A stretch of DNA of 64,000 nucleotides from Escherichia coli O127:H6 str. E2348/69. GTDB lineage: Bacteria > Pseudomonadota > Gammaproteobacteria > Enterobacterales > Enterobacteriaceae. The position numbers are program-made. How positions within the stretch are numbered: position 1 is the first letter of the stretch; every line of letters begins with the position of its first letter. Of this stretch, positions 11,401 through 17,400 are shown one piece after another. The DNA lies in assembly GCF_000026545.1 (NCBI RefSeq), contig NC_011601.1; one strand, 5' to 3'.

Positions 11401-14400
11401 GGAATTGGCGGAACCACGGCTTGTGCACCGGTATTAATAAAAATTTTCTCGCCATGAATCTCCAGATTTCTCCCAGGCCGATGAACACGCAGGCTATGAT
11501 TATTGATAAACTCCGCCAGGCCGTCGATCACGTCGATATTGGGCATATCCGCAAGATTATGAAAATTCTTATTACGTAAAAAATTAACCACTTCATTTTT
11601 ACGCTGTATGGCACGGACAAAATCTGTGTGCTGCTGTGCGTCATGAACCAATGTTTTGGTTGGGATACAGCCGATATTAATACAGGTCCCGCCATACATT
11701 GCATTTGATTGTTCGATGAGAGCCACACGCCAACCTGCTTTTGCCAGCGTGACGGCTAATGTTTTTCCAGCCTTGCCAAAACCAATAATAACTGCCTGAT
11801 ATTTATTCATGATGATTTCCTGTCGAAACGCGTTCATTTGACATCATGACTATAGACGCAAAAGAGCAAATAACATTTCTTCACAACGCTTGATATTTTG
11901 TCTTATCGTCTGGTATTTTCTTTTTCTTAATCAGAATCACAAAACAAAAATCATGATTAACTATTTGATGGTATTAGATTAATTATTGACTAAGATTGTT
12001 GGTGTTTGTAATCAAAAAACCACTCAGGAGTCTGATATGGATGCTCTTAGCCGTTTGTTGATGCTTAACGCTCCACAAGGAACGATCGATAAGAATTGCG
12101 TGTTAGGAAGTGACTGGCAACTTCCACATGGTGCCGGGGAATTGTCGGTTATTCGTTGGCATGCGTTAACGCAAGGAGCGGCGAAGCTGGAAATGCCGAC
12201 GGGAGAGATTTTTACATTACGCCCGGGAAATGTGGTCCTGCTACCACAAAATTCAGCTCATCGCCTGAGTCATGTCGATAATGAATCGACCTGTATTGTC
12301 TGTGGCACTCTTCGACTGCAACATTCGGCGCGTTATTTTTTAACGTCTTTGCCGGAAACGCTGTTTGTAGCACCAGTGAACCATAGCGTGGAATATAACT
12401 GGCTGAGGGAGGCGATCCCGTTTTTACAACAGGAATCCAGATCGGCAATGCCGGGAGTGGATGCTCTGTGTAGCCAGATCTGCGCTACATTCTTTACCCT
12501 CGCGGTGCGTGAGTGGATTGCACAGGTTAATACAGAGAAAAACATTCTCAGTTTGCTTCTGCATCCACGTCTTGGTGCGGTAATACAGCAAATGATGGAA
12601 ATGCCTGGACACGCCTGGACCGTCGAATCGCTGGCCAGCATCGCCCACATGTCCCGGGCAAGTTTTGCCCAGCTTTTCCGTGATGTTTCCGGAACCACGC
12701 CGCTGGCTGTATTAACAAAGTTGCGTCTACAAATAGCGGCCCAGATGTTTTCCCGGGAAATGCTCCCTGTTGTGGTGATCGCTGAGTCAGTAGGCTATGC
12801 CAGCGAATCATCTTTTCACAAGGCGTTTGTCCGCGAGTTTGGTTGTACTCCGGGAGAATATCGGGAAAGGGTCAGACAGCTTGCACCCTGAATAAAACCG
12901 CCAGAAATCAGGGCAAAGATAATCCGCATTCCGGGAGTTGTGAGCCTTTCAACTATTTCTATTTCCAACGGTGGTTTTGGGCTTTATATATTTTTTTTGA
13001 TGGACTCTAGCTCAGTTTTTAAATAAAAATGCAAACTAAATTGCTTCAATTAAATAAAATCCCGACTATTACTTGATACGTGATTATTGTCGGTGATTTT
13101 TTTTGTGCACCATCAGTGTATATCTCAATAACCCCTGAATAAGTAGCTCTGAATAGGTATAAGGGGTGTAGCCTTTTTAAATGGATTTCTTATGCCAAAA
13201 ATGATCGTCGATTTCCCTATAAAATGTGAGCGATGCCGAAAGAAATAAAATTAGTTATTGCATTTGAAGTTTAGATGAAAGATTATCATTTGTCATACAA
13301 ATGAGAGGTGGTATGTTGCTAGCCAATTAAAAAAGAACGCCATATTTATTGATGATTGATCCCCCGGAAGGGGGGAACCATCGGGCATAAATGGGCATGA
13401 AGTAATGGAGTATTAGTTGTGAATGTCAATTTCTTTGTCACCTGTATTGGTGACGCCCTGAAATCAAGAATGGCACGAGACTCCGTGCTGCTACTGGAAA
13501 AACTCGGCTGTCGCGTAAATTTCCCGGAGAAACAGGGATGCTGCGGTCAGCCTGCGATCAATAGTGGTTATACCAAAGAAGCGATTCCAGGGATGAAAAA
13601 TCTGATCGCCGCACTGGAGGATAACGACGATCCCATTATTTCACCGGCTGGCTCTTGCACCTATGCCGTAAAAAGTTACCCGACGTATCTGGCGGATGAA
13701 CCTGAATGGGCATCACGTGCCGAAAAGGTTGCCGCGCGTATGCAGGATCTCACCTCTTTTATTGTTAATACATTAGGGGTAGTCGATGTAGGTGCCAGTT
13801 TGCAAGGGAGAGCGGTGTATCACCCATCTTGTAGCCTGGCCCGTAAGCTGGGGGTGAAGGACGAACCTCTTACGCTGCTGAAAAATGTGCGTGGACTGGA
13901 GCTGTTGACCTTTGCTGAACAGGATACCTGCTGCGGATTTGGCGGCACGTTCTCGGTCAAAATGGCCGAAATATCCGGCGAGATGGTGAAAGAAAAGGTT
14001 GCGCACCTGATGGAAGTCCGCCCTGAGTATTTAATTGGTGCTGACGTGAGTTGCCTGCTGAACATCAGTGGACGATTACAACGGGAAGGGCAGAAAGTCA
14101 AAGTGATGCATATTGCTGAAGTGCTGATGAGCCGCTGAGGATATAAAGATGTCGATCAAAACCAGTAATACAGATTTTAAGACACGCATCCGTCAGCAAA
14201 TTGAAGATCCGATCATGCGTAAAGCGGTGGCAAACGCGCAGCAGCGTATTGGGGCAAATCGGCAAAAAATGGTCGATGAATTGGGGCACTGGGAGGAGTG
14301 GCGCGATCGGGCCGCCCAGATACGTGATCATGTTCTGAGTAATCTCGACGCTTATCTGTACCAGCTCTCAGAAAAAGTGACACAAAACGGCGGTCACGTC

Positions 14401-17400
14401 TATTTTGCAAAAACCAAAGAAGACGCCACCCGCTACATTTTACAGGTTGCCCAACGCAAAAATGCCCGGAAGGTAGTGAAATCTAAATCGATGGTGACCG
14501 AAGAGATTGGTGTCAATCATGTGTTGCAGGATGCCGGGATTCAGGTGATTGAAACCGATCTGGGTGAATACATTCTCCAGCTGGATCAAGATCCGCCCTC
14601 TCATGTTGTGGTCCCGGCAATTCATAAAGATCGCCATCAGATCCGTCGAGTGCTACACGAACGTCTGGGCTATGAGGGGCCGGAAACGCCTGAAGCGATG
14701 ACCTTATTCATTCGGCAAAAAATCCGCGAAGATTTCCTCAGTGTTGAAATAGGTATTACCGGCTGTAATTTCGCGGTGGCAGAGACCGGTTCGGTATGCC
14801 TGGTGACCAATGAAGGTAATGCGCGAATGTGTACCACGCTGCCTAAAACGCATATTGCAGTGATGGGAATGGAGCGTATTGCTCCCACGTTTGCAGAGGT
14901 AGATGTATTGATCACCATGCTGGCGCGCAGTGCCGTTGGTGCACGTTTGACGGGATACAACACCTGGCTGACAGGACCGCGCGAAGCGGGGCACGTTGAT
15001 GGTCCTGAAGAGTTTCATCTGGTTATTGTCGATAACGGGCGTTCTGAGGTGCTGGCCTCTGAATTTCGGGATGTGCTGCGCTGTATTCGTTGCGGGGCTT
15101 GTATGAATACTTGTCCGGCATATCGCCATATTGGCGGTCATGGATATGGCTCTATTTATCCAGGGCCAATTGGTGCGGTGATTTCCCCGTTACTTGGCGG
15201 CTATAAAGATTTTAAAGATTTACCCTACGCCTGCTCTTTATGCACCGCTTGTGACAGCGTGTGTCCGGTGCGTATTCCGCTGTCAAAACTGATTTTGCGT
15301 CATCGTCGGGTGATGGCTGAAAAAGGGATCACCGCAAAAGCAGAGCAACGGGCGATAAAAATGTTCGCTTATGCCAATAGTCATCCAGGATTGTGGAAAG
15401 TCGGGATGATGGCTGGTGCTCATGCGGCAAGCTGGTTTATCAATGGCGGCAAAACACCACTCAAATTTGGCGCGATTAGCGACTGGATGGAAGCACGCGA
15501 TCTTCCTGAAGCTGACGGAGAGAGTTTCCGTAGTTGGTTTAAGAAACATCAGGCGCAGGAGAAAAAGAATGGATAATCGGAGCGAATTTTTGAATAACGT
15601 TGCTCAGGCACTGGGTCGCCCGCTGCGACTTGAACCGCAAGCAGAAGATGCGCCGCTTAACAACTATGCTAACGAGCGGCTTACCCAACTTACCCAACAG
15701 CAGCGCTGTGACGCGTTTATCCAGTTTGCCAGCGATGTTATGTTGACGCGCTGTGAACTGACCAGCGAGGCGAAGGCGGCAGAAGCTGCAATACGTCTGT
15801 GTAAAGAGCTGGGAGATCAGTCGGTCGTGATTAGTGGTGACACGAGGCTGGAGGAATTGGGGATTAGCGAACGTTTGCAGCAGGAATGCAATGCCGTTGT
15901 TTGGGATCCGGCGAAAGGTATTGAGAACATATCACAAGCAGAGCAGGCTAAAGTGGGCGTCGTATATGCTGAATATGGTTTAACCGAATCGGGAGGCGTG
16001 GTTCTTTTTTCCGCCGCCGGGCGCGGGCGTTCATTGAGCCTGCTCCCGGAATCTTCTCTTTTTATCCTGCGTAAAAGCACAATCCTGCCGCGTGTAGCGC
16101 AACTCGCAGAAAAATTGCATCAGAAAGCGCAGGCCGGTGAACGAATGCCGTCATGTATTAACATCATCAGTGGTCCCAGTTCAACGGCGGACATTGAGCT
16201 TATCAAAGTCGTCGGGGTTCATGGTCCGGTGAAAGCGGTGTATCTGATTATTGAGGATTGCTGAGAGAGATATGTAGTCTGGACATAAACCTGAAGGCGG
16301 TATACGAGGTTGTGAATAGCGTTAAGGACAACCTGACTTAACCCCGTTCCGTCATGGTTATGCTGCTCTTCTGTAAATATCCTGACATTAATAATGCCAG
16401 GATATTTACAGTGAAAAAGACAGGAATCCATTCCTGAAGACGGGCTCCCTTCCCGGTCATTGTCACTATAGTTTTATACAGGCACTCTCTGTCAGAATGC
16501 TGTTTATTACTGCCCAGAGTTTTGTTGGTATTCATCTACCATTTTTTTGACAAGGCAAAACATTACAGAAATCACAATACTTAGAAAAAATCCCAGAGCC
16601 AGGCAAATGGCAGCAGGGTATTTATTTTTTATTTCTGGTGAGCTTATAGTGACACAGCCATCACCGTTCGGATACAATGACCAGTTCCTGGTCAGGTATA
16701 TCATTTTTGTATAAAGCTCACTGTTAATTGCTGAAGGCGTTTGTATCTCATCGAGAACTTGCCTGCCATTATGGTATTCTGACGCATACCATTTGATGGT
16801 AGACGCCTGCACGCGAGATATTTCCGCTTCAGCAGTTGGTAAATCTCTCTTATCTCCTGACCATTCCAGCTTTATTTCTCTGTTATACAGAAACAACAGC
16901 ACCATTGCCATACAGATAGCTATAATAAAAAGGATAATACGAATCTTTTTCTTCAGATAAAATAAAATCTCAATCAGATCGATATCCTGTTTTATTTGTT
17001 CATTCATAATATATCCAGAAAATGAAATCTGTCGCAGATAATATTGTATTAATAGTCTGTATCAGGAATGTTCGGGTTAAATATCAACGAAAAACCAGAA
17101 TCATGAATACTGGATATGAAGCATGAGAGTTACCTCAGTGTTTTATATAAGGATTCGGTCCTCATAGTAGAACGGTAACTCTCAATCTGATCGGTTCCTG
17201 AGTCAGTTCACATCACGACTCATTTTTTCGCTCTCACCGGCATCCCATTTGCCACAAAATATCCCGCCGTGCTCCTCGGCAACGCTTCCTTCCCACGAAT
17301 CATATCCGCTATTTTCTCGCCAATCATAATCGTCGTGGCGTTCAAATTGCCGGTGATAATTTGCGGCATAATTGACGCATCCACCACGCGCAGGCCTTCC

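What the first reader, a model, noticed from the sequence alone, without database searches (positions are those of the whole stretch)
13419..16264. ykgEFG: LutABC-like three-gene Fe-S oxidoreductase operon of unresolved physiological role
The three genes have the LutA (CCG cysteine-rich), LutB (two 4Fe-4S ferredoxin clusters) and LutC (LUD domain) architecture, with ykgF/ykgG overlapping by 8 nt (translationally coupled). By homology this is a lactate-utilisation-type oxidase, but E. coli already has LldD and Dld, so the in vivo substrate is open. The 526-bp AT-rich upstream region (12892..13418) suggests complex regulation.
Basis: partly seen in the sequence, partly recalled or inferred. Interest (0 to 1): 0.3.

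Follow-up and report, generated by a model that had tools for sequence, protein, structure and literature searches.

The report
Known E. coli L-lactate dehydrogenase operon
This is the conserved E. coli ykgEFG operon, an iron-sulfur L-lactate dehydrogenase of the LutABC type whose function and repressor (YieP) are already published. Its long AT-rich upstream spacer is mostly the scar of a lost lactate permease gene and a lost D-lactate dehydrogenase gene, not a sign of elaborate regulation.

Summary
Three co-directional genes sit exactly where stated in a window that is 100% identical to E. coli O127:H6 E2348/69. YkgE has two CCG domains. YkgF has a LUD domain, two CxxCxxCxxxCP motifs and a LutB_C domain. 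YkgG has a LUD domain, and ykgF/ykgG overlap by 8 nt.

The LutABC assignment is supported, but "unresolved role" is partly out of date. Published genetics show an L-lactate-specific fitness defect of a ykgEFG mutant during nitrate respiration. Published data also show about 10-fold repression by the GntR-type regulator YieP.

A perfect 15/15 copy of the published YieP motif lies at 13288-13302, over the core promoter. It is conserved upstream of ykgE in several Enterobacterales genera.

The 527-bp spacer (35.5% GC) is better explained as a relic than as complex regulation. It holds a 25-codon lactate-permease fragment (12879-12953, minus strand). It is also collinear with the lctP<>dld divergent intergenic region of lctP-dld-ykgEFG modules in Citrobacter and on Klebsiella plasmids, so dld was deleted here.

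The genes are under strong purifying selection (dN/dS 0.05-0.13). Verdict: real, ordinary and already known; the catalytic chemistry of the enzyme family remains open.

The parts
13419..14138 (+). ykgE (LutA/LldE-type subunit): two CCG cysteine-rich domains, HdrB-like
   Evidence: Pfam CCG x2, E=8.8e-35. It aligns to the C-terminal halves of GlcF, GlpC, TfrB and LdhH and to HdrB 5odc_B over residues 4-216. All 9 Cys are at least 99% conserved in 72 homologues.
14149..15576 (+). ykgF (LutB/LldF-type subunit): N-terminal LUD domain, two [4Fe-4S] ferredoxin motifs (C312-C322, C362-C372), LutB_C tail
   Evidence: TIGR00273 scores 776.3 bits against a cut-off of 444.8. Pfam gives LUD_dom, Fer4_8 and LutB_C. 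Motifs CIRCGACMNTCP and CSLCTACDSVCP are present. It matches HdrC. The eight motif Cys and C206 are invariant.
15569..16264 (+). ykgG (LutC-type subunit): LUD domain; start overlaps the ykgF stop by 8 nt
13288..13302 (.). YieP operator: perfect palindromic match ATTTGTCATACAAAT (reverse complement ATTTGTATGACAAAT)
   Evidence: It matches the published ChIP-exo motif atTTGTaTGAcaAAT at 15 of 15 positions. It is the only match with at most 1 mismatch in the 64 kb window, against 0.03 expected. It is conserved upstream of ykgE, or of dld-ykgE, in Escherichia, Citrobacter, Klebsiella plasmids, Proteus, Leminorella and Pragia.
13258..13286 (+). Candidate core promoter conserved across genera: TTGCAT, 17 nt, GATTAT. 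The predicted start site falls inside the YieP palindrome.
   Evidence: All six bases of TTGCAT and five of the six bases of GATTAT are invariant in the 8-sequence alignment A2 of Escherichia, Citrobacter and a Klebsiella plasmid. Coordinates were checked. The start site was not measured.
13290..13317 (+). Alternative promoter-like site TTGTCA, 16 nt, TATGTT (with an upstream TG); its first hexamer lies inside the YieP palindrome
   Evidence: Consensus scan: 3 sites found in the region against 5.0 expected, so the scan alone is not significant. The spacing changes by a 4-nt insertion in other Escherichia species, and the second hexamer is not conserved in Citrobacter.
13221..13249 (+). Conserved upstream block AAAATGTGAGCG...CCGAAAGAAATAAA; binding factor unknown
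   Evidence: Nearly invariant across Escherichia, Citrobacter and the plasmid module. It contains a TGTGA half-site, but no full CRP-type palindrome can be read.
13305..13396 (+). Leader segment with no counterpart in dld-containing relatives (dld deletion scar); includes the GC hairpin CCCCCGGAAGGGGGG at 13361-13375
   Evidence: In L003 and L007 the homology jumps from the operator region to about 22 nt before ykgE, with dld in between. The leader fold is not unusual, z=-0.39. No Rfam match.
12955..13220 (.). AT-rich remainder of the ancestral lctP<>dld divergent intergenic region; contains the degraded palindrome at 13035-13050
   Evidence: It is collinear at 61-71% identity with the sequence that starts at the lctP start codon in Citrobacter and the Klebsiella plasmid.
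12879..12953 (-). lctP (lactate permease) relic: 25 codons, 80% identical to LctP residues 334-358; abuts and slightly overlaps the rclR stop (12889-12891)
   Evidence: tblastn E=3e-9 against the spacer. It is the only significant LctP match in the whole window, E=5e-6 against 0.83 for the next best. The same fragment is present in K-12.

Best explanation
ykgEFG encodes a three-subunit, iron-sulfur, NAD-independent L-lactate dehydrogenase of the LutABC/LldEFG type. It oxidises L-lactate to pyruvate and feeds the electrons into the respiratory chain.

Proposed path (inferred). The two LUD domains, one in the N-terminal half of YkgF and one in YkgG, form the small-molecule binding and catalytic module. 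Electrons pass through the two ferredoxin-type [4Fe-4S] clusters of YkgF to the two HdrB-like CCG clusters of YkgE. YkgE hands them to quinone at the membrane. In effect, the YkgF C-terminal half plus YkgE is a split GlcF/GlpC-type electron-transfer subunit.

Expression. The three genes are made from one transcript with tightly coupled translation. Transcription is held off by the GntR-family repressor YieP, bound to a single palindrome over the core promoter. Derepression under anaerobiosis, through FnrS lowering YieP synthesis, would fit the nitrate-dependent phenotype; that link is inferred.

Origin. The E. coli locus is the surviving part of an older lctP<>dld-ykgEFG lactate-utilisation module. 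The permease gene is reduced to a 25-codon relic, dld is deleted, and the former dld promoter and operator now drive ykgE.
For: Shown here:
- Domain architecture, with LutB above NCBI's equivalog cut-off (776 against 444.8 bits).
- YkgF and YkgE match consecutive halves of the fused LdhH model (positions 2-464 and 468-705 of 706). YkgF residues 304-473 and YkgE match the N- and C-terminal halves of GlcF and GlpC.
- HdrC and HdrB are the nearest solved structures.
- All Fe-S cysteines are invariant in 72 homologues.
- E-F-G order is kept in 71 of 71 loci, and a lactate permease gene lies next to the operon in 41 of 71.
- Plasmid and Citrobacter modules have the layout lctP, dld, ykgEFG.
- dN/dS is 0.05-0.13 against K-12 and 0.03-0.06 against the plasmid copy.
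- The operon is present in 5234 of 5426 complete E. coli genomes.
- The YieP motif matches 15/15 at 13288-13302 and is conserved across genera.

From papers:
- An L-lactate plus nitrate fitness defect of the ykgEFG deletion, with no defect on D-lactate (PMC9701030).
- About 10-fold up-regulation in a yieP deletion, plus ChIP-exo binding (PMC7642389).
- FnrS represses yieP translation about 1.5-fold (bioRxiv 10.1101/2024.02.12.579971).
- A later paper (PMC13279387) cites earlier work (Malfoy et al. [quoted passage not shown]
Against: - There is no enzymology for the E. coli complex. The published evidence is one competitive-index experiment in strain MP1.
- The ykgEFG mutant had no phenotype in mouse gut models, and overexpression did not change lactate titre.
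- One paper states that K-12 shows no lactate phenotype (PMC7984374).
- No flavin or NAD domain was found by sequence in any subunit, and the YkgG model gave no strong match to such a fold. The site of hydride or electron abstraction is therefore unknown.
- The H. pylori homologue was reported as NAD-dependent (PMC4117512), so the electron acceptor is not settled for the family.
- Each CCG domain of YkgE lacks one of the five HdrB ligand cysteines.
- No transmembrane segment was looked for or shown.
- The transcription start site, and therefore which candidate promoter is real, was not determined.
Confidence: 0.8

Rival explanations
1. The physiological substrate is not L-lactate but another 2-hydroxy acid or related compound, for example glycolate, 2,4-dihydroxybutyrate or 3-hydroxypropionate-related metabolites. 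L-lactate oxidation would then be a side activity. This is the reading the first reader left open.
For: [quoted passage not shown] The repressor YieP was discovered through 3-hydroxypropionate tolerance, and its ligand is unknown. E. coli already has LldD. No gut phenotype was found.
Against: The fitness defect is specific to L-lactate. The operon sits next to lactate permease genes in 41 of 71 loci and next to dld in the plasmid and Citrobacter modules. LutB is above the equivalog cut-off for the L-lactate oxidation family. Deleting ykgEFG did not change 3-HP tolerance, which depended on yohJK.
Confidence: 0.12
2. The operon is a silenced, functionally dispensable leftover of a decayed lactate island and is drifting toward loss in E. 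coli.
For: The neighbouring lctP and dld have been lost. The operon is strongly repressed under laboratory conditions. Animal models showed no phenotype. About 190 of 5426 genomes lack it.
Against: dN/dS is 0.05-0.13 within E. coli. All three reading frames are intact, with only 3, 3 and 5 amino-acid differences from K-12. All Fe-S cysteines are retained. It is present in 96% of genomes. A phenotype was measured with nitrate plus L-lactate.
Confidence: 0.04
3. The 527-bp AT-rich spacer is a complex regulatory region integrating several regulators.
For: Besides the YieP site, there is a block at 13221-13249 that is nearly invariant across genera with no assigned factor. AT-rich DNA is a typical target of nucleoid proteins (general knowledge, not tested). 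The phenotype depends on anaerobiosis and nitrate.
Against: By standard BLAST, homology with other Escherichia species starts only at about 13202-13221. The distal 330 bp is a permease relic plus a decayed divergent-promoter region, whose palindrome ACTGAATCGCTTCAGT is degraded in E. coli. There is no Rfam match and the leader fold is unremarkable. The promoter-like count is below chance.
Confidence: 0.15

Closest known systems
LutABC of Bacillus subtilis / LldEFG of Shewanella oneidensis (three-subunit L-lactate utilisation oxidoreductase)
   Same: Same three proteins in the same order and with the same domains: CCG x2; LUD + 2x[4Fe-4S] + LutB_C; LUD. LutB is above the equivalog cut-off. E. 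coli shows an L-lactate-specific phenotype. Relatives are associated with a lactate permease.
   Different: In E. coli the adjacent permease is lost. Instead of the lactate-pathway regulators of the model systems (LutR in Bacillus, as cited), the known regulator is YieP. The phenotype has so far been seen only under nitrate respiration. I did not align directly to the Bacillus or Shewanella proteins.
Mobile lctP<>dld-ykgEFG module of Klebsiella/E. coli plasmids and Citrobacter gillenii (L003, L007, L009)
   Same: 83.5% DNA identity over the operon and 87-95% protein identity. Same gene junctions. Same promoter and operator block, including the YieP-type palindrome.
   Different: The module keeps a divergent lactate permease gene and a D-lactate dehydrogenase gene between the promoter and ykgE. 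The E. coli chromosome has only a 25-codon permease fragment and no dld at this site.
HdrBC of methanogen heterodisulfide reductase, and the Fe-S subunits GlcF (glycolate oxidase) and GlpC (anaerobic glycerol-3-phosphate dehydrogenase)
   Same: YkgE aligns with HdrB and with the C-terminal CCG halves of GlcF and GlpC. YkgF residues 300-470 align with HdrC and with the N-terminal ferredoxin halves. It therefore probably works as an electron-transfer module of the same kind.
   Different: Here the module is split over two genes. Each CCG domain has 4 of the 5 HdrB ligand cysteines, with the first Cys of CxxC missing. The partner is a pair of LUD domains rather than a flavoprotein. Scores are far below those families' cut-offs, so it is not a member.
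LdhH, the large subunit of quinone-dependent L-lactate dehydrogenase (NCBIfam NF045670)
   Same: YkgF matches model positions 2-464 and YkgE matches positions 468-705 of 706. The fused protein therefore equals YkgF plus YkgE, which argues that the two act as one unit.
   Different: In E. coli the two are separate polypeptides. Each scores below the 800-bit cut-off of the fused model.
DUF162/LUD structure 2g40 (Deinococcus radiodurans DR_1909)

Membership tests
LutB/LldF family (TIGR00273) | Whole-protein score above the curated equivalog cut-off | tested here: met
   776.3 bits against a cut-off of 444.8, covering model positions 1-432 of 432.
LutB/LldF family (TIGR00273) | LUD domain followed by two CxxCxxCxxxCP motifs and a LutB_C tail | tested here: met
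   Pfam LUD_dom at 72-294, Fer4_8 at 309-376, LutB_C at 386-468. Motifs at C312 and C362. All eight Cys are invariant in 72 homologues.
LutA/YkgE family | Two CCG cysteine-rich domains with conserved C...CCG...C pattern | tested here: met
   Pfam CCG, 2 stretches, E=8.8e-35. Cys at 9, 41, 42, 80 and at 138, 171, 172, 212, each conserved in at least 99% of 72 homologues.
LutC/YkgG family | Single LUD domain protein encoded directly after lutB | tested here: met
LutABC/LldEFG system | Three genes conserved as one unit in the order A-B-C | tested here: met
   71 of 71 related loci keep E, F and G in order on one strand.
LutABC/LldEFG system | Required for L-lactate (not D-lactate) oxidation | not testable with these tools
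   Literature only: an MP1 ykgEFG deletion has a fitness defect with L-lactate plus nitrate, but not with D-lactate (PMC9701030). No biochemistry on the E. coli enzyme was found.
LutABC/LldEFG system | Genomic association with lactate transport or other lactate genes | tested here: met
   A permease gene is adjacent in 41 of 71 loci, and dld is adjacent in L003, L007 and L009. In E. coli itself only a 25-codon permease relic remains.
HdrB (heterodisulfide reductase subunit B) | Full five-cysteine motif C...CC...CxxC in both CCG domains | tested here: not met
   In the alignment to 5odc_B, 8rvu_b and 9sfi_C, YkgE has AGSC where HdrB has CNGC, and DVSC where HdrB has CPFC. The first Cys of each CxxC is therefore absent. 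The NCBIfam HdrB model scores 28 bits against a cut-off of 345.
GlcF / GlpC Fe-S subunits | Single polypeptide with an N-terminal 2x[4Fe-4S] domain and a C-terminal 2xCCG domain, above the family cut-off | tested here: not met
   YkgE matches only the C-terminal halves (101 and 79 bits against cut-offs of 333 and 278). YkgF matches only the N-terminal halves. This is a similar module, not membership.
YieP regulon | Palindromic operator atTTGTaTGAcaAAT at the promoter | tested here: met
   15/15 match at 13288-13302. It is the only hit with at most 1 mismatch in 64 kb, against 0.03 expected, and it overlaps both candidate promoters.
YieP regulon | In vivo YieP binding and derepression in a yieP mutant | not testable with these tools
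   Literature: ChIP-exo target and roughly 10-fold up-regulation in E. coli W and K-12 (PMC7642389).
Structured RNA leader / riboswitch | Match to a curated RNA family, or an unusually stable leader fold | tested here: not met
   No Rfam match at E<=1 over 12700-17200. The leader fold has z=-0.39, and 68 of 200 shuffles fold as well.

The most novel reading that the evidence does not exclude
YieP, whose ligand is unknown, may be the cognate sensor-repressor of an ancestral lctP<>dld-ykgEFG lactate-utilisation module. Its operator sits at the dld/ykgE promoter in Escherichia, Citrobacter, Klebsiella plasmids, Proteus and Budviciaceae. E. coli would then have kept only the LutABC part, wired to YieP and, through FnrS, to anaerobiosis, as a dedicated L-lactate dehydrogenase for anaerobic respiration. 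The YieP ligand would be lactate, pyruvate or a close hydroxy acid.

A second open reading applies to the whole family. The enzyme may oxidise lactate without flavin, using LUD domains and HdrB-like non-cubane clusters.
Probability: 0.25. Interest if true: 0.4.

Novelty: already known. Interest (0 to 1): 0.15.

Why it matters
The locus itself adds little. It is a core E. coli operon with a published function (respiratory L-lactate dehydrogenase) and a published repressor (YieP).

Three modest points come out of this check:
- A precise map of the control region, with the operator over the core promoter, that can be tested directly.
- An evolutionary explanation for the oversized AT-rich spacer: permease relic, dld deletion and promoter capture. 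This warns against reading spacer length as regulatory complexity.
- A reminder that no member of the LutABC family has a solved structure or a defined catalytic cofactor, so the chemistry of a widespread lactate enzyme is still open.

Lactate use by Enterobacteriaceae matters in the inflamed gut, and mobile lctP-dld-ykgEFG copies on Klebsiella plasmids suggest selection for extra lactate capacity.

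Tried and rejected
- Structured leader or riboswitch: no Rfam hit, and the leader fold is indistinguishable from shuffles. Rejected.
- Intrinsic terminator after ykgG: none on the + strand. There is only a long inverted repeat at 16371-16411 without a T-run.
- My first guess that the conserved 'TTGCAT' is the reverse-strand start codon of a lost lctP. Rejected, because in Citrobacter the lctP start lies about 330 nt further upstream. TTGCAT is better read as a -35 element.
- FNR/CRP/NarL sites read by eye: the TGTGA half-site at 13225, TTGAT..GATCC at 13346, and heptamer-like ACCCCT/AGGGGT at 13129-13168. 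None forms a convincing full site. The heptamers are not conserved in relatives. Left as leads only.
- A literature search for ArcA/FNR/NarL control of ykgE was badly framed and returned nothing relevant.
- The Pinchuk et al. 2009 paper on Shewanella LldEFG could not be read.
- tblastn for LldR- or YieP-like regulators next to the operon in 72 loci gave no hit at E<=1e-10 with at least 50% query coverage.
- tblastn for a Dld remnant in the E. coli spacer gave nothing.

Full report
**Identity of the window and the observation**

The stretch 12892-16264 is 100% identical to E. coli O127:H6 strain E2348/69. It is found in 5234 of 5426 complete E. coli genomes, mostly at 95-99% identity.

The ORF list and direct reading confirm the genes:
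- ykgE 13419-14138: GTG start, GGAG 8 nt upstream.
- ykgF 14149-15576.
- ykgG 15569-16264, with an 8-nt ATGGATAA overlap with ykgF.
- A 10-nt ykgE/ykgF gap with a GAGG over the ykgE stop codon.

The GTG or ATG start of ykgE is at the same position in relatives from several genera. The upstream spacer is 527 bp at 35.5% GC, against 51% for the window.

**Domain and family tests**

Pfam gives two CCG domains in YkgE. It gives LUD_dom, Fer4_8 and LutB_C in YkgF, and LUD_dom in YkgG. NCBIfam places YkgF in the LutB/LldF equivalog at 776 bits against a cut-off of 445.

YkgF and YkgE match consecutive parts of the fused LdhH model (positions 2-464 and 468-705 of 706). YkgF residues 304-473 and YkgE match the N- and C-terminal halves of GlcF and GlpC. 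The ferredoxin part of YkgF plus YkgE is therefore a split version of the Fe-S subunit seen in glycolate oxidase and anaerobic glycerol-3-phosphate dehydrogenase.

By sequence, the nearest solved structures are HdrC for YkgF, HdrB for YkgE, and the DUF162 protein 2g40 for YkgG. No LutABC complex is in the PDB copy.

In the HdrB alignment, YkgE keeps eight of the ten cluster-ligand cysteines. It lacks the first Cys of each CxxC, so it is HdrB-like but not an HdrB.

**Constraint**

In 72 homologues recovered from one-genome-per-species contigs, the following are conserved in at least 99% of sequences:
- all nine Cys of YkgE;
- the eight ferredoxin Cys and C206 of YkgF;
- C78 and C196 of YkgG.

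dN/dS is 0.13, 0.05 and 0.07 against K-12, and 0.03-0.06 against a plasmid copy. The E2348/69 proteins differ from K-12 at only 3, 3 and 5 residues. The operon is a maintained, functional unit.

**What is already published**

PMC9701030 made a clean ykgEFG deletion in E. coli MP1. It found a fitness defect with L-lactate plus nitrate under anaerobiosis but not with D-lactate. The authors concluded that YkgEFG is a respiratory L-lactate dehydrogenase. The mutant had no defect in mouse colitis models.

PMC7642389 found ykgEFG up about 10-fold in yieP deletions of E. coli W and K-12. It found YieP bound at the operon by ChIP-exo, with the motif atTTGTaTGAcaAAT.

A 2024 preprint shows that the FNR-dependent small RNA FnrS lowers yieP translation about 1.5-fold.

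[quoted passage not shown] A published lactate-non-consuming strain carries deletions of lldD, dld, glcD and ykgF.

One paper notes that K-12 shows no lactate phenotype. The H. pylori homologue was reported as NAD-dependent, so the electron acceptor is not uniform or settled in the family.

**The control region**

The window carries a perfect 15/15 copy of the YieP motif at 13288-13302. No other site with at most one mismatch exists in 64 kb, against 0.03 expected.

The same palindrome, with 0-1 mismatch, lies upstream of ykgE in three other Escherichia species, ten Citrobacter genomes, Proteus, Leminorella and Pragia. Weaker versions occur in Pluralibacter and Budviciaceae. In Budviciaceae it overlaps the stop codon of a co-directional permease gene, so part of that conservation may be due to coding.

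Alignment across Escherichia, Citrobacter and a Klebsiella plasmid shows three features:
- an invariant TTGCAT (13258-13263);
- 17 nt further on, a GATTAT (13281-13286) in which five of six bases are invariant;
- an almost invariant block at 13221-13249.

This conserved promoter would start transcription inside the palindrome. The consensus scan instead reports TTGTCA, 16 nt, TATGTT at 13290-13317. That arrangement is not conserved outside E. coli, and the number of scan hits is below chance.

Either way, YieP sits on the core promoter, which fits simple steric repression. The start site itself was not measured. There is no Rfam match. The leader fold is unremarkable, z=-0.39, apart from a small GC hairpin at 13361-13375.

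**Why the spacer is long and AT-rich**

Related loci show the operon next to a lactate permease gene in 41 of 71 cases. In Klebsiella and E. coli plasmids, Citrobacter gillenii and a further Citrobacter strain, dld lies directly upstream of ykgE; where the upstream sequence is available (L003, L007) the layout is lctP(-)<>dld-ykgEFG.

The E. coli operator and promoter block (13211-13304) is 75-77% identical to the region upstream of dld in those modules, not to anything next to their ykgE. Homology resumes only about 22 nt before ykgE. So dld has been deleted in E. coli, and its promoter now drives ykgE.

Further left, 12955-13160 is collinear (61-71%) with the sequence that begins at the lctP start codon in Citrobacter.

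At 12879-12953 the minus strand encodes 25 residues that are 80% identical to LctP residues 334-358. This is the only significant LctP match in the window, E=5e-6 against 0.83 for the next best. It is on the expected strand and side, and it is also present in K-12.

A palindrome that is intact in relatives (ACTGAATCGCTTCAGT) is degraded in E. coli to ACTAAATTGCTTCAAT at 13035-13050. That is what one expects for a site that served the lost permease gene.

The long AT-rich spacer is therefore mainly a gene-loss scar. This reading is new as far as the papers I could search show, but it is a minor point.

**Mechanism**

Shown or published:
- the three proteins are a conserved unit carrying Fe-S motifs;
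- the mutant phenotype is specific to L-lactate and needs a respiratory acceptor;
- YieP represses the operon.

Inferred:
- the LUD pair is the substrate-binding and catalytic module;
- electrons run from the YkgF ferredoxin clusters to the YkgE CCG clusters and then to quinone, by analogy with GlcF, GlpC and HdrBC;
- anaerobic derepression runs through FnrS and YieP.

Unknown: the cofactor that abstracts the hydride, the YieP ligand, and the niche where the enzyme matters.

**Verdict**

The claim of an unresolved role is partly superseded by published work, and the claim of complex regulation is not supported. The feature is already known and of low interest. One modest new observation is the evolutionary origin of its control region.

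Noticed in passing
window 12879-12953 (minus strand): A 25-codon fragment 80% identical to lactate permease LctP residues 334-358. It abuts the rclR stop codon, is not annotated in E2348/69 or K-12, and is the only significant LctP match in the window.
   Followed up: yes
window about 9376-12954; loci L004-L006: Three non-coli Escherichia genomes (E. whittamii, Escherichia sp. E1V33, strain SCPM-O-B-8794) lack the whole rclC-rclB-rclA-rclR block and the permease relic. In them the aldo/keto reductase gene (window up to about 9375) is followed directly by a spacer of about 520 bp and then ykgE.
   Followed up: partly
window 16507-17007 (minus strand): The ykgH homologue is 166 aa here against 222 aa in K-12. 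It has an in-frame deletion of K-12 residues 42-97; the rest is 93-97% identical.
   Followed up: yes
L003 (Klebsiella pneumoniae plasmid pM169-3.1) 3240-9846; 157 plasmid records at 80-90% identity: A mobile lctP<>dld-ykgEFG lactate module, 83.5% identical to the chromosomal operon. It is widespread on Klebsiella, Raoultella and E. coli plasmids, many of them conjugative, and sits next to IS and arsenic-resistance genes. Extra lutABC(P) copies in E. coli islands are also reported in PMC9769692.
   Followed up: partly
window 13035-13050: ACTAAATTGCTTCAAT is the degraded version of a perfect palindrome, ACTGAATCGCTTCAGT, with a TGA-N6-TCA core of the CRP/FNR type. The palindrome is conserved in other Escherichia, Citrobacter and the plasmid module, about 85-100 nt upstream of where lctP starts.
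   Followed up: partly
window 13221-13249: The block AAAATGTGAGCGATGCCGAAAGAAATAAA is nearly invariant from E. coli to Citrobacter and Klebsiella plasmids. No factor is assigned, and it contains only a TGTGA half-site.
   Followed up: partly
window 35769-35783: A 13/15 match to the YieP motif (ATCTGTATGCCAAAT) in the yahK-yahM intergenic region. It could be chance. yahM is annotated as frameshifted in this strain.
   Followed up: partly
L008 (Citrobacter youngae), roughly 4900-4960: The ykgE leader of dld-less Citrobacter still encodes the last ~16 residues of Dld (PTNTMNPDIGKTSKQK, against PTNTMNPGIGKTSKHK in the plasmid Dld). Citrobacter therefore lost dld by an internal deletion, independently of E. 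coli.
   Followed up: partly
window 16371-16411: A 14-bp inverted repeat (CTGTAAATATCCTG ... CAGGATATTTACAG) lies between the convergent ykgG and ykgH genes, with no T-run on either strand. No intrinsic terminator was detected for ykgEFG on the + strand.
   Followed up: no
window 13129-13136 and 13161-13168: Inverted ACCCCT / AGGGGT elements that resemble NarL heptamers. They are specific to E. coli and not conserved in relatives.
   Followed up: no
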